Of a stretch of 64,000 nt of DNA, positions 52,074 through 57,693 are shown one piece after another (position 1 is the stretch's first letter; every line of letters starts with the position of its first letter). Under the pieces are notes generated by a model. The model had not been told where the DNA came from and ran no database searches. It saw nothing but the letters and a program-made list of their open reading frames with translations. Where the stretch lies: the NCBI GenBank assembly GCA_900540875.1, contig UQHT01000004.1, positions 28,972-92,971 of the forward strand, written 5' to 3'. The position numbers and the translations under genes were made by a program. The stretch comes from an uncultured Collinsella sp. (lineage in GTDB: Bacteria; Actinomycetota; Coriobacteriia; Coriobacteriales; Coriobacteriaceae).

Positions 52074-52820
52074 CTAGAACAGGAAGCCGATGGCGATGAG
52101 GGCGATGCTGACGATGAGCACGGCGATGTCCAGGCCCTTGATGGGGTAGCGCTTGTACGAGCTGGCGCGTGTACGCAGATAGAAGCCGCGCTGTTCTGCC
52201 GCCAAGGCTGTGGCATCGGTCTTGCCCACGCTCGAGATGAGCAGTGGCACGCACAGTGGCAGCATGAGCTTAAGCTTCTTGATGGGGTTCTTGGTGTCGT
52301 ACTCGACGCCGCGTGCGGTCTGCGCTTCCATGATGGCGTTCATCTCCTGACCAAACACCGGCACAAAGCGTAGCGCCGTGGTAAAGGTGAAGGCATAGCG
52401 ATACGGCACGTGCAGCACCTCGACGCAGGCGTTGGCGAGGTCGTTGAGCTTGGTCACCATAAGCATGAGGATGAGTGGCAGCGCCACGCCCAACAGGCGT
52501 AGGCAGGCCTTCGATCCGGTAATGAGGCCCGTGTCGGTGATAAAGCCCCACACTATGTTGCCGTCGCGCATAAAGGCCAGCTGAAGCACCAGCATGATAA
52601 GTGCGAGCGGAATCAGCAGCTTGAGTAGCGAGAGCAGACGGTCGACGACACCGGCATAGGCGCCCAGTGCGAGGGTGAGTGCCAAAAAGCCCAACAGCGC
52701 CACGTAGGTGTCGGACAGGAAGATGCCGATGATGATGGCGGCGGCAAGGCCCAGTTTGACGACCGGGTTCAAGCGGTGCAGCAGTGTGTCGCCCGGCATA
52801 TAGTCGATGACGTTAACCAC
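52074..52820 (-). CDS. ECF transporter T component (EcfT/CbiQ family)
   Basis: A 248-aa multi-TM protein with CbiQ-like pattern. It overlaps the EcfA gene end. Confidence 0.8.
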   Translation of the reverse strand: MVNVIDYMPGDTLLHRLNPVVKLGLAAAIIIGIFLSDTYVALLGFLALTLALGAYAGVVDRLLSLLKLLIPLALIMLVLQLAFMRDGNIVWGFITDTGLITGSKACLRLLGVALPLILMLMVTKLNDLANACVEVLHVPYRYAFTFTTALRFVPVFGQEMNAIMEAQTARGVEYDTKNPIKKLKLMLPLCVPLLISSVGKTDATALAAEQRGFYLRTRASSYKRYPIKGLDIAVLIVSIALIAIGFLF

Positions 52821-54564
52821 GGTGGACCATCTCCTCGGTAATGCGAACGATATCGGTGACCTCGCTCACCTGTGCAAAGACGGGAGAGACGGAGGATGCC
52901 AGACGATGAGAAAGCTCTATGACCTGAGGTGGCTCAACGTAGGCTTGCTGCATGAGCTCGATGTTCGAGAATAGCTCGTGCGTGCGGCCGCGGTCGAGGA
53001 TACGACCGTCGGCCATTACTACGATACGCTCGGCAAAGTCGGAAACGACTTCCATGTCGTGACAGACCATAATCACGGCGCAGCCGCGCTCGGCCATGGT
53101 GCGCACCGTTTCCATGACGGTCATGCACTCGCGGTAATCAAGGCCGCTCGTGGGCTCGTCGAGCACGACGATCTTGGGCTCAACAACTACGACGGAGGCA
53201 AGCGCCACCATTTGTCGCTGGCCGCGCGAAAGCGAGAAAGGTGCCTCATCGGCAGGCAGGCCAAAGCGGTCGATAACGAGTCGAGCGCGACGCAGAGCCT
53301 CGGCACGGTCGATGCCGGCAAGCTCCAGGCCAAAAGCGACCTCGTCGAGTACGGTATCCTTGCAGATCTGGCGGTCGGGGTTTTGGAAGAGGGTTGCGAC
53401 TTCGCGGGCGATGCGGCTCGTGGGAACGGCTGCGGTGTCCAGCCCCGTAACGCGCACGCTGCCCGAGGCGGGCTTAAGCAGGCCTGTGAGCAGCTTGGTG
53501 AGCGTGGTCTTGCCGGCACCGTTCTGGCCGACGATGCCCACGAGCTCGCCGGGATAGAGGGTCAGGTTGAGGTCGTGTACGGCGGCGCCGCCATTGGGAT
53601 AGGCAAACTCAACGTGATCGAAGGTGAGCACGGGCTCGGCGTCCTTGGCGTGCGGGCGCAACGACGGTGCATGCGGGGAGCCGGCGGGCGCCTGGGCTTC
53701 GCTGGCCGCGTGTGCGGGGTCGACAATGCCCGAAATCAGGCGCTCGGCCTCATCGACATCCAAGCAAGGGGTACCGCTTACCAGGCCATCGGCCTCGAGG
53801 CTATTGAAGATACGCGTGACGCGAGGGCAGTCGACGCCGATGGCACGGAGCTCGTCGGTATGCGCGAAGACCTCGTGTGGCTCGCCCTGCAGCGCGATTT
53901 CGCCACGGTTGAGCACGAGCACGCGGTTGCAGTACTCCGAGAGTAGGGCGACCTTTTGCTCAACGACGACGATGGTGATTCCAAGCGCGCGGTTTGCCTC
54001 ACGCAGCGTCTCGAAGACCAACGTGGAGCTGGCGGGGTCGAGTGCCGCGGTGGGCTCGTCGAGAACCAAGACGCGCGGACGCATAGCGAGGATGGCAGCG
54101 ATGGCTACCTTTTGCTTCTGTCCGCCCGAGAGGGTGGCGATCTCGCGGTCGCGCAGGTCGCTGATGCCGACGGTCTCGAGGGTTTCGGTGACGCGCTGCT
54201 CAATCTGGTCGTGCGGCACGCCAAAGTTCTCGAGGCCAAAGAGCATCTCATCCTCAACCACGGAGGCGACCATCTGCGTGTCGATATCCTGCAGCACGCT
54301 GCCGACGATTTGCGACACGTCGGTCAACGAGACCTCGCAGGTGTCGTGGCCGTCAACCATGACGGACCCAAAGAACGTGCCGGTGTAGTGGTGGGGCACG
54401 GCGCCCGACAGGCAGGCGGCAAGCGTGGACTTGCCGGCGCCCGAGGGCCCGATAATGCCGATGAAATCTCCCTTGTTCACGCTGAGTGAGATGTGGCTGA
54501 GCGCCCGCTCGGTCTGCGTGCCATAGGAGAACGAGACATCGTCGACGTTGATGATCGTTTCCAT
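52813..54564 (-). CDS. ECF transporter ATPase, fused EcfA1-EcfA2 (two ABC domains)
   Basis: Two Walker A motifs (GPSGAGKST, GQNGAGKTT) and two LSGGQ signatures in one 583-aa ORF. Confidence 0.85.
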   Translation of the reverse strand: METIINVDDVSFSYGTQTERALSHISLSVNKGDFIGIIGPSGAGKSTLAACLSGAVPHHYTGTFFGSVMVDGHDTCEVSLTDVSQIVGSVLQDIDTQMVASVVEDEMLFGLENFGVPHDQIEQRVTETLETVGISDLRDREIATLSGGQKQKVAIAAILAMRPRVLVLDEPTAALDPASSTLVFETLREANRALGITIVVVEQKVALLSEYCNRVLVLNRGEIALQGEPHEVFAHTDELRAIGVDCPRVTRIFNSLEADGLVSGTPCLDVDEAERLISGIVDPAHAASEAQAPAGSPHAPSLRPHAKDAEPVLTFDHVEFAYPNGGAAVHDLNLTLYPGELVGIVGQNGAGKTTLTKLLTGLLKPASGSVRVTGLDTAAVPTSRIAREVATLFQNPDRQICKDTVLDEVAFGLELAGIDRAEALRRARLVIDRFGLPADEAPFSLSRGQRQMVALASVVVVEPKIVVLDEPTSGLDYRECMTVMETVRTMAERGCAVIMVCHDMEVVSDFAERIVVMADGRILDRGRTHELFSNIELMQQAYVEPPQVIELSHRLASSVSPVFAQVSEVTDIVRITEEMVHRG

Positions 54565-54776
54565 GGATACCTTTCATAGTTATTGGGGACGTTCTTACAT
54601 GACTAGTCGTTTAAGAACGTCCCCAAGAGCTAGTTGTTTGGGACAGTCTTTGTTGGTGGAGTGCGGAGACGGCTTTACGAGGGGCCCCAGGTTGGCGCGA
54701 AAGAGGAGCGAAGCGTACTTGGGTACGCGAGCGACGAATGAACGCCAAGATGGGGTGGCTCATAAAGCCGAGCGGG

Positions 54777-55349
54777 TTAGTTGAGCTTCAGGGCCTTCTG
54801 GATGGGCAAGTAGAGGGCGCCGACCAGAATGGCGTTAAAGACGGCGGTCATGGCGACGACGGGCAACATGGCGGCGGCGAGCTCGCCCACCACGCCGAGC
54901 ATGGCCATCTTGATGACCATGAAGATGGCGCCGGAGACAAAGGTGGTCACGAAGGTTGCGACGATGGCGACGGCAGGCTTGACCTGACCGTTCTTGCCGG
55001 CGGCGTTGACGATGCCGGCCATGAGCATGGCGGCGATGCCCTCGGCGGCAAAATCGACGAACGGCGAAGTGGTGGTGATCTGGATCACGGCAGCCGAGAT
55101 GAGGCCAATGACGAGCGCCTGGCCGATGTTGGGGCGAACGACCAGGATGGTGAGGCAGAAGGCCGAGATGATGAACTCGGGGCTGATCATGCCGCCCGAG
55201 ATGCCCGAGATTGCCTTGCCGACGGTGAAGTTGAGGATGAAGCCGGCGGCGAGCAGGATGGCGAGCAGGACGAGGTCGCGGACATCGAGTTTGCCGCGAT
55301 CGGCGGTATGGACGGTGCGGGGCTGGGTGGCGGTGGTGTTCTGAGACAT
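54777..55349 (-). CDS. ECF transporter S component (substrate-specific; TrpP-like inferred from leader)
   Basis: A 190-aa protein with 5 to 6 TM helices. It is the first gene of the S-A1A2-T operon. AAAGGA RBS 8 nt before the ATG at 55349. Confidence 0.7.
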   Translation of the reverse strand: MSQNTTATQPRTVHTADRGKLDVRDLVLLAILLAAGFILNFTVGKAISGISGGMISPEFIISAFCLTILVVRPNIGQALVIGLISAAVIQITTTSPFVDFAAEGIAAMLMAGIVNAAGKNGQVKPAVAIVATFVTTFVSGAIFMVIKMAMLGVVGELAAAMLPVVAMTAVFNAILVGALYLPIQKALKLN

Positions 55350-55426
55350 GGTGAAAATCCTTTCGGAAGGGGATTGCAAGAGAAAAGCGGAGGCGCGTGA
55401 TGCGAATGCGATCGGGCTCGAGATAG

Positions 55427-55455
55427 AAAAAGGCCCCCGGTCGAAACCGGAGGCC
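55427..55455 (-). terminator. Strong intrinsic terminator inside the 5' leader of the ECF operon
   Basis: Minus strand reads GGCCUCCGG-UUUCGA-CCGGGGGCC followed by UUUUUCU. Confidence 0.65.
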
Positions 55456-55493
55456 TTCCAATCACCTAGAGCGCAAAAACAGGCGTGAGGGAC

Positions 55494-55562
55494 TCACTGT
55501 CGACCGATCGTATTCGCATCACGCCACCACCAGTTGTTGAGAGGTTTCATCGTGTTCTTCAT
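55494..55562 (-). CDS. Leader peptide ORF, 22 aa, with three consecutive Trp codons (MKNTMKPLNNWWWRDANTIGRQ)
   Basis: AAAGGAG 8 nt upstream of the ATG. UGG UGG UGG at 55532..55524. The ORF ends 38 nt before the terminator. Not in the ORF track because it is under 60 aa. Confidence 0.5.
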   Translation of the reverse strand: MKNTMKPLNNWWWRDANTIGRQ

Positions 55563-55689
55563 GTTGGTGGCTCCTTTCGTGATGCCGTGGCGCGGTCGCA
55601 CCTAGTTGCTGTTGCGCTGCACTATAGCACAGCGAAGTGTGTGCGGGGAAATCTTTTTTAAAAAGATTTCAGGCGGGTTTCCCGTCGGT

Positions 55690-55745
55690 CAAAAGAGCGG
55701 GCTAAGCGGGCGAGGCTGCCATTGCTGCCTCGCCCGCTCAGCTAA
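55690..55745 (-). terminator. Terminator candidate after the C69 dipeptidase gene
   Basis: Perfect palindrome AGCGGGCGAGGC-N10-GCCTCGCCCGCT, followed on the minus strand by TAGCCCGCTCTTTTG. Confidence 0.45.
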
Positions 55746-55749
55746 GACG

Positions 55750-57693
55750 TTACTCCTTATTGCGACGGTAGAGGAAGTAACCGCCTGCGGAGATGACGGC
55801 AACGCCAGCGATGGCGAATGCAGCCACCACGCGGCCATCAAAACTATCACCGGTGGTGGGCAGGCCGCCCTTGGTGTTCGTCTTGTTGGTGGTTACTGTG
55901 GTCGTGGTGTCGGACTTGCCAGGCTTCTCGGGCTTGGTGGTGGGCTGCTCGGGCTTAGCGGGCTGCTCGGGGGTACCGGGCTGCTCAGGAGTACCAGGCT
56001 GCTCGGGGGTGCCAGGCTGATCCGGGGTTACCGGGTCGGTGGCAAGAGCGTCCTTGGCGTAGGTGATGGACACCTTGAGGCCGTTGGTCTCGGTGTTCAG
56101 GTCGCTCGGGGTGAAGGGCGTGCTGAAATCCTCAGCCTTCAGATAAGCGCGCATCTCCTGGAGAAGGGCCTTGCACTTGACGTAGGTGTTCTCAGTGGCA
56201 GCCTTGCCGGCCTTGTTTGCCAGGGCGGTGCGGCCCTCAGTGGTGGTCTCGGCCTGCATAGCAGCATCGACCTCAAGGTTCTGCTCGATGAGCTCGTTCT
56301 GGAGAGCGTCGAGGTAGGCGCGAACGCCGGTGCCGAGCTGCTCGCGGTGCTCGTAGCAGAGGGAACTAATGTCCATGAGGACGTAGTTGATGGAGTTCTC
56401 GGGCTCCTCGTTGTTCACGATGTCCGTCTCTTCGCAGTGATCGTAGGAGACATCCTGATTGCTGAAGTAGGGGCTGACCTCGGTGAGCAGTGCAGAGTAC
56501 AGAGGAATAGCGACGGAGTAGGCGGCGCGGGAGAGCATCTCCCACTGAATGGTCGCGATCTCGGGGTCCATGCCCTGACGGATCTGGAAGAGGTTGGTCT
56601 CGGTGCTTCTTTCGGTGCCGATGGCGTAGACACCGTCGGTGTTGGCGTTGAGGCCGGGGACATTTTCGCCGCGGTTGCCAAATGCACGGATCATCTCAAA
56701 GGTGTTCCAGTCGGACTTGCCGGGCTTGAAGAACAGGGGCTGGATCTCGCTGACCATGGCTCCGATTTGGTCGGGGCCTTTTTCCGGTTTAACCGTGACG
56801 ATGTCGTAATCCGCACCCTTGGTCAACGGGGCCATGAAGTAATCGCGGCCCTGGACATAGCGAGTCCACTGATGAACGCCGGAATCGGCGACGCTTTTGC
56901 CATAGGTCTTGGCAACGTCGAACTTGCCGTCGGTGTACTCGGCGAAGCCATTTTTCTCGGGCATGGTCTGGATGCCCTCGGAGTGGAGGCAGTTCTCGAC
57001 GTCATCAAGGTTGACATCGTAATTGAGTCCGCCGATGTTGGGGTTGAGTGAGGCGACGTCATCGGCGAGCTTCATGGCGATCCACTGGTGGCCGGAAAGT
57101 GCGGCAAACAGCCAAGTCTCGTTGCTGTCGGCGATGATAATCTGATCGTTGCCGTTGGCGCCCTGCTCGTCGATGATCTTGCCGAGGAGCTCGACACCCT
57201 CACGTGCTTTGGCACTTTCGCCTAAGATAACGCTGCCGTAGCTATACTCGCCAATGCCAGTGTCGGTCAGGGGGTCTGCCTTGGCGGCTTTATCGTTCAT
57301 GTTGGTGGTCAGCGTTGCGGAGCAGGACACGCCCTTCTCATTGATGCCTGCCTCAGAGTAGGCATCATAGCGCCCGTGCCACTGCGAAGGATGATCGCGC
57401 ACGTAGCTATAACGATATGTAGTCTTGGTCGACCTGTATGAGAAGTCGGACTCGTCTGAGCCGTAGGTATACCCGGGGGCATGCGACGGCTCAATGCCAA
57501 AGTGCTTGAGGTAGCGCGGGCCAAAGTCCTCGGCGCGACCATAGTACGTGTTGTTGTCGGCCGTAAGGTTTTTGCCCATGTACATTTGCGTGCAGGCGAG
57601 CGCAGATGTCGGCATGGACATGATGGTCGCAGCTCCAAAGGCGAGGCCTATGCCTAGCTTCTTGAGCGCGTTGACGGGGCGAGTTTTCCTCAT
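55750..57693 (-). CDS. C69-family dipeptidase, secreted, LPXTG cell-wall anchored
   Basis: Signal peptide. ALACTQMYMGK has the Cys nucleophile right after the signal. C-terminal PGTPEQ x3 repeats, then an LPTTG sortase motif, a hydrophobic stretch and RRNKE. Confidence 0.85.
   Translation of the reverse strand: MRKTRPVNALKKLGIGLAFGAATIMSMPTSALACTQMYMGKNLTADNNTYYGRAEDFGPRYLKHFGIEPSHAPGYTYGSDESDFSYRSTKTTYRYSYVRDHPSQWHGRYDAYSEAGINEKGVSCSATLTTNMNDKAAKADPLTDTGIGEYSYGSVILGESAKAREGVELLGKIIDEQGANGNDQIIIADSNETWLFAALSGHQWIAMKLADDVASLNPNIGGLNYDVNLDDVENCLHSEGIQTMPEKNGFAEYTDGKFDVAKTYGKSVADSGVHQWTRYVQGRDYFMAPLTKGADYDIVTVKPEKGPDQIGAMVSEIQPLFFKPGKSDWNTFEMIRAFGNRGENVPGLNANTDGVYAIGTERSTETNLFQIRQGMDPEIATIQWEMLSRAAYSVAIPLYSALLTEVSPYFSNQDVSYDHCEETDIVNNEEPENSINYVLMDISSLCYEHREQLGTGVRAYLDALQNELIEQNLEVDAAMQAETTTEGRTALANKAGKAATENTYVKCKALLQEMRAYLKAEDFSTPFTPSDLNTETNGLKVSITYAKDALATDPVTPDQPGTPEQPGTPEQPGTPEQPAKPEQPTTKPEKPGKSDTTTTVTTNKTNTKGGLPTTGDSFDGRVVAAFAIAGVAVISAGGYFLYRRNKE

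What the first reader, a model, noticed from the sequence alone, without database searches (positions are those of the whole stretch)
55350..55620. Tryptophan-codon leader peptide (WWW) in front of an ECF transporter operon: a candidate ribosome-mediated Trp attenuator
Directly read: on the minus strand a 22-codon ORF MKNTMKPLNNWWWRDANTIGRQ starts at 55562 with AAAGGAG 8 nt upstream. It contains UGG-UGG-UGG. A strong intrinsic terminator (GGCCUCCGG/CCGGGGGCC + UUUUU, 55455..55427) lies downstream of it. The S-component gene starts at 55349. Three tandem Trp codons in a 22-aa ORF with a near-consensus Shine-Dalgarno are very unlikely by chance, since Trp is the rarest codon. Such leaders are the hallmark of Trp-sensing attenuation in E. 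coli trpL and actinobacterial trp leaders (established knowledge). Here it would control an ECF S-A1A2-T importer, which would make the S component a tryptophan-specific TrpP-type protein (inference). I could not identify a convincing antiterminator that competes with the terminator, so the mechanism may be non-classical.
Basis: partly seen in the sequence, partly recalled or inferred. Interest (0 to 1): 0.8.

Follow-up and report, generated by a model that had tools for sequence, protein, structure and literature searches.

The report
Tryptophan-sensing leader controlling an ECF importer
A tiny upstream gene with three consecutive tryptophan codons, followed by a transcription stop signal, most likely switches on a tryptophan importer when this gut bacterium (Collinsella, a reported tryptophan auxotroph) runs short of tryptophan; it is a textbook mechanism found in a new place.

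Summary
On the minus strand, a 22-codon ORF (55562-55494, MKNTMKPLNNWWWRDANTIGRQ) with a Shine-Dalgarno is followed by an intrinsic terminator (55455-55427) and an S/A1A2/T ECF operon.

The window is from the Collinsella aerofaciens group. The leader is conserved in all 80 Collinsella loci, in seven more distant protein-retrieved lineages including Olsenella, and in 76 metagenome loci. It always has N-WWW, nine codons, then UGA, and where enough sequence is present it always precedes a TrpP-like S gene.

Covariation supports two helices:
- P1: the Trp/Arg codons pair with a segment just after the stop.
- The terminator stem.

A third hairpin reuses the P1 3' strand and extends into the terminator's 5' arm through the invariant UCGGUCGA-nn-GUGAGUC. 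This gives a plausible antiterminator that a ribosome at the stop codon would mask. That part is inferred and is weakest in the window's own lineage.

Eggerthellaceae relatives of the same S-component carry a T-box with a UGG specifier instead, which supports tryptophan as the signal and induction on starvation.

Two features are non-classical: the leader's own ribosome-binding region and a post-terminator element both pair with the Trp codons.

Verdict: a new member of a known kind.

The parts
55621..55629 (-). Extended -10 promoter-like box TGCTATAGT. The -35 region is weak in the window.
   Evidence: Read. A TA(T/A)(A/T)GT box at the same position is conserved in all 8 protein-retrieved lineages. 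The strict sigma-70 scan found nothing, so this is an inference from conservation only.
55565..55584 (-). Region 0: CAUCACG-AAAGGAG-CCACCA. It includes the leader's Shine-Dalgarno (55577-55571) and is complementary to the Trp/Arg/Asp codons (helix P0).
   Evidence: The minimum-free-energy fold pairs it with 55532-55515. The duplex is -20.6 to -21.0 kcal/mol. Leader initiation regions average -14.6 kcal/mol against -10.3 for 168 control initiation regions (Mann-Whitney p = 7e-10; the leaders are related to each other).
55494..55562 (-). Leader ORF of 22 codons plus UGA: MKNTMKPLNNWWWRDANTIGRQ*.
   Evidence: It is conserved with an in-frame SD+AUG in 41 of 41 representative leaders, with no out-of-frame alternative, while the AUG-to-WWW distance varies from 24 nt upward in multiples of 3.
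55524..55532 (-). Three tandem Trp codons UGG-UGG-UGG, the regulatory codons.
   Evidence: Invariant in 80 Collinsella loci and 7 other protein-retrieved lineages. The stop is always 9 codons after the third UGG.
55515..55529 (-). Region 1: UGGUGGCGUGAUGCG (second and third Trp codons plus Arg-Asp-Ala codons). It is the 5' strand of P1, and a ribosome stalled on the Trp codons would mask it.
   Evidence: RNAalifold helix with compensatory changes. Pair counts on 41 sequences: the synonymous third base of the Arg codon covaries with region 2 (CG in 33, UA in 6).
55491..55509 (-). Region 2a: GA-UCGGUCGA-CA-GUGAGUC, containing the stop codon UGA (55496-55494). This is the proposed basal 5' strand of the antiterminator, and a ribosome sitting on the stop codon would mask it.
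   Evidence: UCGGUCGA-nn-GUGAG is invariant in all 8 protein-retrieved lineages, although the encoded residues vary (V/I/L before it; Q/L/S/W at the last codon). GGU is 12% of Gly codons and CGA is 2.7% of Arg codons locally. In the fold with a stalled ribosome, 55509-55504 pairs with 55450-55445.
55482..55488 (-). Region 2b: UCACGCC, the 3' strand of P1. It is reused as the 5' strand of the 2:3 hairpin (H3 is 55485-55480 with 55468-55463).
   Evidence: P1 duplex is -13.4 to -13.9 kcal/mol in the window. It is compensatory across lineages: GGCGUGA:UCACGCC, GGCGCAG:CUGCGCC, GUGGCGCGA:UCGCGCCAU. H3 is present in all 41 leaders with mean z of -1.17.
55427..55455 (-). Intrinsic terminator: 5' arm GGCCUCCGGU (55455-55446), loop UUCG, 3' arm ACCGGGGGCC (55441-55432), U-run 55431-55427.
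   Evidence: -23.9 kcal/mol. It is conserved with 5 pairs changed on both sides and 97.7% of cells paired.
55391..55408 (-). Region 5: CAUUCGCAUCACGCGCCU, a post-terminator element complementary to region 1. Its function is unexplained.
   Evidence: Duplex of -26.2 kcal/mol against -18.8 +/- 2.3 for shuffled spacers (0 of 200 shuffles as good). It covaries with the Arg and Asp/Ala codons in other lineages and is absent in some lineages.
54777..55349 (-). ECF S-component (190 aa), TrpP-like; inferred to be tryptophan-specific.
   Evidence: Pfam PF17099 TrpP at 23.8 bits (cut-off 27.2) covering profile positions 2-168 of 169. It is the only family hit in 15 of 15 homologues. It is 41% identical over its full length to a T-box-controlled Eggerthellaceae homologue.
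52813..54564 (-). Fused A1A2 ECF ATPase (583 aa).
   Evidence: Two ABC_tran domains; TIGR04520 at 461 bits and TIGR04521 at 439 bits.
52074..52820 (-). ECF T component (248 aa, CbiQ family).
   Evidence: PF02361 at 92.6 bits.

Best explanation
This is a ribosome-mediated (leader-peptide) transcription attenuator that senses the supply of charged tRNA-Trp. It controls a dedicated ECF-type tryptophan importer (TrpP-like S, fused A1A2, T) in a Collinsella genome.

Transcription starts at a promoter about 40-60 nt upstream of the leader AUG (inferred).

When Trp is plentiful:
- The ribosome translates the 22-codon leader and reaches the UGA stop.
- There it covers UCGGUCGA-nn-GUGAGUC and the following UCACGCC (region 2).
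- The terminator's 5' arm stays free, the 55455-55432 hairpin forms, and transcription ends at the U-run.

When Trp is scarce:
- The ribosome stalls on UGG-UGG-UGG and covers region 1 only.
- Region 2 is left naked. It folds with the downstream spacer (the 2:3 hairpin) and with the terminator's 5' arm and loop, forming the antiterminator.
- RNA polymerase reads through into the transporter genes.

Without a ribosome, region 1 can pair with region 2 (P1).

Shown here: the ORF, its conservation and reading frame, P1, the terminator, the operon link, and the replacement of the leader by a T-box in relatives. Inferred: the antiterminator pairing, the timing, the promoter, the substrate, and the response to Trp.

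Two extra partners of region 1 are conserved additions whose roles are unknown: the leader's own ribosome-binding region (P0) and a post-terminator element (region 5).
For: - The ORF, SD, WWW and terminator read as claimed. Chance expectation is 0.005 per window.
- The leader is conserved in 80 of 80 Collinsella loci and in 7 further lineages retrieved through the S protein, including Olsenella.
- 76 metagenome loci carry about 30 distinct peptides. Every locus with enough downstream sequence has a TrpP-like S gene at 40-88% identity.
- SD+AUG is always in frame despite variable N-terminal length. The stop is always UGA, 9 codons after the third Trp codon.
- P1 plus terminator: 93% of cells paired, 8 pairs changed on both sides, 0 of 500 shuffles reach this, and slid registers give 38-58%.
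- The 2:3 hairpin is present in all 41 leaders and reuses the P1 3' strand.
- The terminator's 5' arm has pairing probability 0.70 with the ribosome on WWW against 0.46 at the stop. Its pairing with the ORF-end segment is 0.64 against 0.42 for shuffled segments.
- Nucleotide-level conservation of UCGGUCGA-nn-GUGAG uses rare codons.
- Eggerthellaceae relatives of the S protein carry a full-length T-box (62.7 and 75.4 bits, E = 2.5e-13 and 1.3e-16) with AAA-UGG at the specifier position.
- Collinsella and Olsenella are reported Trp auxotrophs (PMC10665431).
- B. subtilis trpP is in the TRAP regulon (PMC10877136).
Against: - There are no expression data of any kind.
- The antiterminator's basal helices are invariant on both strands, so they show no covariation.
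- Duplex energies between the ORF end and the 5' arm are no better than shuffles in single sequences.
- In the window's own lineage the effect is weak: 0.51 against 0.30, with 25% of shuffles as good.
- The strict promoter scan found nothing.
- The TrpP Pfam score is below the curated cut-off.
- The 76 metagenome leaders were fetched with a pattern that required AACTGGTGGTGGC and TCGGTCGA. Their invariance at those positions is by construction, so only the 8 protein-retrieved lineages are unbiased.
- The P0 helix is stronger than P1 in the window (-21 against -13 kcal/mol). It could change the default state in ways the classical model does not predict.
Confidence: 0.8

Rival explanations
1. 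TnaC-like sensor. The nascent peptide (NWWWR...GR-x-stop) binds free tryptophan in the exit tunnel and stalls the ribosome at the stop codon, so that HIGH tryptophan induces the transporter.
For: The peptide has a conserved core (N-WWW-R, then G-R two residues before the stop) at a fixed distance from a UGA stop. E. coli tnaC controls a Trp permease (tnaB) together with tryptophanase (my own knowledge).
Against: - Conservation is at the nucleotide level, not the amino-acid level. The residue before G is V/I/L/F but always xUC. The last residue is Q/L/S/W/R but always xxG. GGU and CGA are rare codons.
- The residues after WWW vary: R or H, then D/N/S/G.
- There is no C-terminal Pro.
- A ribosome held at the stop would mask region 2 and favour the terminator, the opposite of induction.
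- Sister clades use a T-box, which induces on starvation.
Confidence: 0.04
2. The ORF is not the sensor. The conserved RNA (or DNA) motif UCGGUCGA-nn-GUGAG and the helices are bound by a protein or small molecule that controls the terminator, and the Trp codons are there only as one strand of a helix.
For: UCGGUCGA-nn-GUGAG is invariant and I could not prove what it pairs with. The UGG run is itself one strand of P0 and P1.
Against: - An SD and an in-frame AUG are kept in 41 of 41 leaders while the N-terminal length and sequence drift in multiples of three, with no out-of-frame starts.
- The stop codon sits inside the invariant motif at a fixed distance.
- No Rfam family matches.
- The geometry fits ribosome footprints: region 1 lies within about 12-15 nt of the Trp codons and region 2 lies around the stop.
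Confidence: 0.05
3. Reverse polarity. The Trp-codon strand itself (AACUGGUGGU) is the antiterminator strand that pairs with the terminator's 5' arm (CCUCCGGUU). A stalled ribosome would then block antitermination, and expression would drop on starvation.
For: A fold of the partial transcript pairs AACUGG.GGU with GCC.UCCGGUU. That complementarity (6 bp, a mismatch, then 3 bp) can be read in other lineages because both strands are conserved (direct reading of the alignment).
Against: - That fold is no better than shuffles (z = +1.05).
- It makes no physiological sense for the importer of an auxotroph.
- It contradicts the T-box replacement in relatives.
- P1 has covariation support and this pairing has none.
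Confidence: 0.03
4. The unit is mainly a small RNA or small protein gene. The terminated leader RNA or its peptide acts in trans (as rnTrpL/peTrpL do in Sinorhizobium), and the transporter has its own promoter downstream of the terminator.
For: Region 5, downstream of the terminator, is complementary to the leader's region 1 with covariation. That would also fit a trans target site. rnTrpL is a precedent (PMC6614838, listed).
Against: - The leader is always physically linked to the S gene, at 77-181 nt in the eight protein-retrieved lineages and as little as about 45 nt in some metagenome leaders, in every lineage.
- I noticed no conserved promoter-like box in that spacer, though I ran no dedicated scan there.
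- A trans role would add to, not replace, cis attenuation.
Confidence: 0.04

Closest known systems
E. coli trp operon leader (trpL) attenuator, Rfam Trp_leader RF00513
   Same: It has a short SD-preceded ORF with tandem UGG codons. It has a 1:2 helix that includes the Trp codons, and a stop codon placed so that a terminating ribosome covers region 2. A GC-rich terminator with a U-run lies about 65-70 nt after the stop. The logic is the same: starvation gives read-through.
   Different: - No sequence or structure match to RF00513, even at E <= 10.
- Three Trp codons instead of two, placed 9 codons (not 3) before the stop.
- It controls an importer, not biosynthesis.
- The Trp-codon strand has extra partners: P0 (sequestering the leader's own ribosome-binding region) and a post-terminator region 5.
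Actinobacterial trp attenuators of Corynebacterium and Streptomyces (Seliverstov et al. 2005, PMC1262725)
   Same: Same phylum. They have leader peptides with double or triple UGG, GC-rich terminators with poly-U, and conserved GGCC-type complementary triples.
   Different: Those precede biosynthetic trp operons and trpS2. That paper never mentions a transporter and its genome set contains no Coriobacteriia. Here the target is an ECF transporter in organisms reported to lack Trp synthesis.
Trp-specific T-box leaders (RF00230) upstream of TrpP-type transporters
   Same: Same regulated gene family, same signal (tRNA-Trp charging), same output (terminator read-through on starvation). Found here upstream of Eggerthellaceae homologues of this S component.
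   Different: The sensor is entirely different: direct tRNA binding rather than ribosome stalling. The window has no T-box.
TRAP control of B. subtilis trpP (yhaG)
   Same: A TrpP-family transporter under tryptophan-responsive RNA-level control (PMC10877136).
   Different: TRAP is a protein that senses free Trp and binds (G/U)AG repeats. No such repeats and no TRAP logic are seen here.
TnaC leader of the E. coli tna operon
   Same: A short leader peptide containing Trp, upstream of an operon that includes a Trp permease (my own knowledge; PMC8429421 is listed).
   Different: TnaC senses free Trp through the nascent chain and blocks Rho, and high Trp induces. Here conservation is at the nucleotide level, the terminator is intrinsic, and the inferred polarity is the opposite.

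Membership tests
Ribosome-mediated (leader-peptide) transcription attenuator | A short ORF with its own Shine-Dalgarno and start codon in the 5' leader of the operon, conserved as an ORF. | tested here: met
   AAAGGAG-8 nt-ATG. An in-frame SD+AUG is present in 41 of 41 leaders with variable N-terminal length and no out-of-frame alternative.
Ribosome-mediated (leader-peptide) transcription attenuator | A run of regulatory codons for the amino acid related to the controlled genes. | tested here: met
   UGG-UGG-UGG is invariant in all protein-retrieved lineages. The operon encodes a TrpP-like importer.
Ribosome-mediated (leader-peptide) transcription attenuator | An intrinsic terminator between the leader ORF and the first structural gene. 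| tested here: met
   55455-55427, -23.9 kcal/mol. Covariation in 5 pairs and 97.7% of cells paired.
Ribosome-mediated (leader-peptide) transcription attenuator | A 1:2 helix that includes the regulatory codons. | tested here: met
   P1 is GGCGUGA:UCACGCC, with compensatory changes across lineages.
Ribosome-mediated (leader-peptide) transcription attenuator | An antiterminator (2:3) mutually exclusive with both 1:2 and the terminator. | tested here: inconclusive
   A 2:3 hairpin reusing the P1 3' strand is present in all lineages. The ORF end is complementary to the 5' arm in 82% of cells but both strands are invariant, so there is no covariation. 5' arm sequestration is 0.64 against 0.42 for shuffles on average and weak in the window lineage. 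Single-sequence duplex energies are not significant.
Ribosome-mediated (leader-peptide) transcription attenuator | The stop codon is placed so that a terminating ribosome masks region 2. | tested here: met
   The UGA lies inside the invariant UCGGUCGA-nn-GUGAGUC, and the P1 3' strand starts 6 nt after it. The spacing is fixed in 41 of 41 leaders.
Ribosome-mediated (leader-peptide) transcription attenuator | Read-through rises when the cognate amino acid or charged tRNA is limiting. | not testable with these tools
   This needs expression data. The only indirect support is the T-box replacement in relatives.
Rfam Trp_leader (RF00513) | A match to the covariance model. | tested here: not met
   No hit, even at E <= 10 with permissive filters on 54500-56500.
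T-box leader (RF00230) | A match to the covariance model, with a specifier loop and a T-box bulge. | tested here: not met
   No hit in the window region. Hits exist only in Eggerthellaceae relatives.
TrpP tryptophan transporter family (Pfam PF17099) | A score at or above the curated cut-off. | tested here: inconclusive
   23.8 bits against a cut-off of 27.2, but the match covers profile positions 2-168 of 169 and is the only family hit in 15 of 15 homologues, with best E = 2.2e-6.
ECF transporter with a dedicated module (S, A, A', T in one operon) | S-component, two ATPase domains and a CbiQ-type T component encoded together. | tested here: met
   S at 54777-55349; fused A1A2 at 52813-54564 (TIGR04520/TIGR04521 above cut-off); T at 52074-52820 (PF02361).
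TnaC-type arrest peptide | Amino-acid-level conservation of the sensor residues (W, D, C-terminal P) with the stop codon as the arrest site. | tested here: not met
   There is no C-terminal Pro. The last residue is Q/L/S/W/R. The residues after WWW vary. Conservation is on nucleotides.

The most novel reading that the evidence does not exclude
The attenuator may be more than a four-region switch. The Trp-codon strand (region 1) has three conserved RNA partners:
- the leader's own SD/AUG region (P0, -21 kcal/mol in the window);
- the post-stop segment (P1);
- a post-terminator element (region 5, -26 kcal/mol, covarying).

This could form a second, post-transcriptional layer. In read-through mRNA, ribosome occupancy of the Trp codons would decide whether region 5 is free, and so tune translation or stability of the S-gene message. 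Alternatively, the abundant terminated leader RNA could pair in trans with region 5 of full-length messages, as rnTrpL does. P0 would limit the leader to one round of translation or set the default state.
Probability: 0.25. Interest if true: 0.6.

Novelty: new member of a known kind. Interest (0 to 1): 0.45.

Why it matters
It gives a concrete, testable regulatory link for how abundant gut Actinobacteria (Collinsella, Olsenella), reported as tryptophan auxotrophs, sense and respond to tryptophan scarcity. That bears on competition for tryptophan between microbiota and host.

It assigns a likely substrate to an unannotated ECF S-component family in Coriobacteriia, using two independent regulatory signals: the UGG leader and the UGG T-box.

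It extends leader-peptide attenuation from biosynthetic operons to an ECF importer and to a bacterial class where it had not been described in the papers I could search.

It also offers a natural experiment. The same transporter clade is under a T-box in one family and under a leader peptide in another, and TRAP controls the family's founding member in B. subtilis.

Tried and rejected
- **Rfam scan of the region at E <= 10:** only noise; no Trp_leader, no T-box.
- **Strict sigma-70 scan:** no hit. The promoter rests on a conserved extended -10 only.
- **Folding the partial transcript to find an antiterminator using the Trp codons and the 5' arm:** not better than shuffles. Rejected as the main switch.
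- **RNAduplex of the ORF end against the 5' arm, per sequence:** not significant against shuffles.
- **UCGGUCGA pairing with the terminator loop and 3' arm (UCGACCGG):** considered and set aside. A competitor for the 3' arm cannot pre-empt the adjacent 5' arm, and the loop bases are not conserved (UCGA, UAGA, UGGA, GCGA; direct reading).
- **A small self-hairpin around GGUC inside UCGGUCGA:** 5-7 bp in 5 of 8 lineages, but broken in the window and in L092/L094 (direct reading). It does not explain the invariance.
- **Genome-contig scan:** returned only near-identical Collinsella. Diversity had to come from protein look-ups and one DNA-pattern scan.
- **Five metagenome loci that seemed to have another gene downstream:** these were artefacts of my ORF picker.
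- **Rodionov 2009 and Vitreschak 2008:** could not be read. Statements about Firmicute Trp T-boxes on trpP rest on my own knowledge.
- **Literature searches for a prior description:** none found.
Full report
**1. The observation**

- AAAGGAG lies at 55577-55571, and 8 nt later the ATG lies at 55562.
- The 22-codon ORF MKNTMKPLNNWWWRDANTIGRQ ends with UGA at 55496-55494.
- UGG-UGG-UGG lies at 55532-55524.
- The hairpin GGCCUCCGGU/UUCG/ACCGGGGGCC lies at 55455-55432, with UUUUU at 55431-55427. It folds at -23.9 kcal/mol and is also picked up by the terminator scan.
- The next gene starts at 55349.

Simulated sequences with the window's dinucleotide statistics give 0.005 ORFs of this kind per 64 kb (ATG, SD, 40 aa or fewer, containing WWW). 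The window has exactly one.

**2. Context**

The three downstream genes form a dedicated ECF module:
- a 190-aa S-component whose only Pfam match is TrpP (23.8 bits, cut-off 27.2, but covering profile positions 2-168 of 169);
- a fused A1A2 ATPase (TIGR04520 and TIGR04521, far above their cut-offs);
- a CbiQ-type T component.

The upstream gene is a C69 peptidase with an LPXTG anchor. It ends at 55750 and has its own terminator-like hairpin at 55735-55708.

An extended -10 box, TGCTATAGT (55629-55621), lies between that hairpin and the leader. It is conserved in all the more distant relatives. The strict promoter scan found nothing, so the promoter is an inference.

The window comes from the Collinsella aerofaciens group. 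The 80 best genome hits are all Collinsella at 97-99% S-protein identity.

**3. Conservation**

- All 80 Collinsella loci keep the ORF and WWW. Substitutions fall in the N-terminal half.
- Seven more distant lineages, reached through S-protein homologues of 76-85% identity and therefore unbiased with respect to the leader, have the same design. One of these homologues is named as an Olsenella uli protein. Their peptides are:
  - MINFSNNSVMNWWWRDAYTVGRL
  - MNKSAMSTSNNWWWRDAFSVGRL
  - MSAMQNLPMNWWWRDANTVGRL
  - MNRIAMLSNNWWWHGSLTVGRS
  - MSRIARTSMNWWWRSLSAVGRS
  - MFQSMNNNWWWRNS(I/N)SLGRW
- A metagenome scan with a leader DNA pattern gave 76 more loci with about 30 distinct peptides. Wherever enough sequence is present, a TrpP-like S gene follows, at 40-88% identity to the window's. 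Those loci were fetched by the motif, so their motif invariance is by construction.
- After de-duplication there are 41 leaders in 14 clusters at 85% identity.
- In all 41 there is exactly one SD+start. It is always in frame with WWW although the AUG-to-WWW distance varies, and there is never an out-of-frame alternative. The stop is always UGA, nine codons after the third Trp codon.

This is what a translated regulatory ORF looks like.

**4. RNA structure that is well supported**

RNAalifold on eight lineages recovered two helices, both with compensatory changes.
- P1 pairs the last Trp codon and the following codons with a segment 6 nt after the stop. In the window this is GGCGUGA (55525-55519) with UCACGCC (55488-55482).
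- The second helix is the terminator.

On 41 sequences, 93% of cells are paired and 8 pairs change on both sides. None of 500 shuffles reaches these values, and slid registers drop to 38-58%.

The synonymous third base of the Arg codon (CGU or CGC) covaries with the partner base in region 2, which is RNA-level selection inside the ORF.

Examples: GGCGUGA:UCACGCC (window), UGGCGCAG:CUGCGCCG (L081, Olsenella), GUGGCGCGA:UCGCGCCAU (L097), UGGCGCGAUG:UAUCGCGCCA (L109).

**5. The antiterminator (inferred)**

The end of the ORF is invariant as nucleotides, UCGGUCGA-nn-GUGAG(UC), while the amino acids change. The codon before it is GUC, AUC or CUC. The last sense codon is CAG, CUG, UCG or UGG. GGU and CGA are rare codons here, at 12% and 2.7%.

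Between the stop and the terminator every lineage has a hairpin (H3) whose 5' strand reuses about half of the P1 3' strand (mean z = -1.17). So region 2 can pair either with region 1 or with region 3, as in classical attenuators.

I folded the nascent RNA up to the terminator loop with a ribosome footprint placed in two positions.
- With the ribosome on the Trp codons, 10-18 kcal/mol of structure appears that is absent with the ribosome at the stop.
- In the GGGCUCCCGG-arm lineages this structure is one long imperfect hairpin. H3 is at the tip, and CGAnnG:CGGUU and GAGUC:GGCUC are at the base, sequestering the 5' arm.
- In the window it is a branched version: 55509-55504 with 55450-55445, 55497-55493 with 55489-55485, and 55484-55481 with 55456-55453.

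Averaged over the 41 leaders, the 5' arm's pairing probability is 0.70 when stalled against 0.46 at the stop. Pairing with the ORF-end segment is 0.64 against 0.42 for shuffled segments.

There are three limits on this evidence:
- The basal helices are complementary in 82% of cells, but both strands are invariant, so there is no covariation.
- Single-sequence duplex energies are not significant.
- The window's own lineage shows the weakest effect (0.51 against 0.30).

The geometry fits. A ribosome with a Trp codon in its A site covers region 1 but stops short of UCGGUCGA. A ribosome on the UGA covers UCGGUCGA-nn-GUGAGUC and most of UCACGCC.

**6. Independent evidence for signal and polarity**

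A second protein search started from the most divergent leader-associated S protein. It led to Eggerthellaceae homologues at 64-76% identity to that query and 41% to the window's S. Five of their loci, chosen without regard to the upstream region, have no Trp-codon ORF.

Instead they carry a T-box. Two were tested and both match the full Rfam model (positions 1-219) at 62.7 and 75.4 bits, E = 2.5e-13 and 1.3e-16. That is below Rfam's cut-off of 93.

All five align with each other. They share AAA-UGG at the specifier position and a UGGC acceptor bulge.

T-boxes switch genes on when the cognate tRNA is uncharged. So the same transporter clade is wired to tRNA-Trp charging by two different sensors. 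That supports both the Trp specificity of the S-component and the starvation-ON polarity of the leader.

Two published points fit this picture:
- Collinsella and Olsenella are singled out as tryptophan auxotrophs among Actinobacteria (PMC10665431).
- B. subtilis trpP is under TRAP (PMC10877136).

**7. Non-classical extras**

*Region 0 (P0).* The leader's own initiation region is complementary to the Trp codons. In the window, CAUCACG...GCCACCA (55584-55565) pairs with UGGUGGC-GUGAUG at -21 kcal/mol. Across the leaders the mean is -14.6 kcal/mol against -10.3 for 168 ordinary initiation regions (p = 7e-10, with non-independence as a caveat).

*Region 5.* A post-terminator element (55408-55391, CAUUCGCAUCACGCGCCU) is complementary to the same strand, at -26.2 kcal/mol against -18.8 +/- 2.3 for shuffled spacers. 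It shows two independent compensatory changes in other lineages but is missing in several. Because it lies after the terminator, it cannot take part in the termination decision. Its role is unexplained.

**8. Comparison with known systems, and novelty**

The element works like the E. coli trpL attenuator and the Corynebacterium/Streptomyces trp attenuators (PMC1262725). It does not match Rfam Trp_leader. It has three Trp codons nine codons before the stop. It controls an ECF importer rather than biosynthesis.

The papers I could search contain no description of a Trp-codon leader in front of an ECF/TrpP transporter or in Coriobacteriia. Two key comparative papers could not be read.

I class it as a new member of a known kind, of moderate interest. 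The upside lies in the extra pairings and in the swap between leader and T-box.

Noticed in passing
window 55391-55408 (minus strand): A post-terminator element, CAUUCGCAUCACGCGCCU, is complementary to the Trp/Arg/Asp/Ala codons of the leader (-26.2 kcal/mol). It covaries with them in several lineages and is absent in others. Its function is unknown.
   Followed up: partly
L172-L176, about 100-450 nt upstream of the S gene (locus positions about 2050-2400): Eggerthellaceae homologues of the S-component carry T-box leaders with a UGG specifier. The two tested score 62.7 and 75.4 bits, below Rfam's gathering cut-off of 93. The default Rfam annotation therefore misses them, and they were invisible in the gathering-threshold scan.
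   Followed up: partly
L084 3639-4184, L087 3890-4435, L090 3742-4311, L094 3618-4166: Many relatives have two tandem TrpP-like S-component genes after one leader, whereas the window has one. In L092/L093 the second copy is a 67-71-aa remnant, and in L089 it is split into two ORFs.
   Followed up: no
window 52813-54564 compared with L172-L176: The two ECF ATPase domains are fused into one 583-aa protein in Collinsella/Olsenella-type operons. In the Eggerthellaceae operons they are two separate genes of about 280-320 aa each.
   Followed up: no
window 55750-57693 (minus strand): The upstream gene encodes a 647-aa peptidase C69 family protein with a C-terminal LPXTG cell-wall anchor, followed by its own terminator-like hairpin at 55735-55708.
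   Followed up: no
window 55352-55375 (minus strand): Just before the S-gene start, AAUCC...GGAUU can form a 5-bp hairpin that includes the GGA of the S-gene Shine-Dalgarno (GAAAGGA, 55364-55358). It may act as a translational brake. Its conservation was not tested.
   Followed up: no
L040 (contig CAVEET010000032.1): A contig labelled 'Bulleidia sp.' carries a 97% identical copy of this Collinsella S gene and leader. It is probably a binning or labelling error in that assembly.
   Followed up: no
L102 and L123, leader region: In these leaders the SD-proximal start codon is TTG (MARIANTAMVSKNAMNWWWRGVETVGRS). They belong to the S-protein clade that otherwise uses T-boxes, which marks a recent swap of sensor type.
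   Followed up: partly
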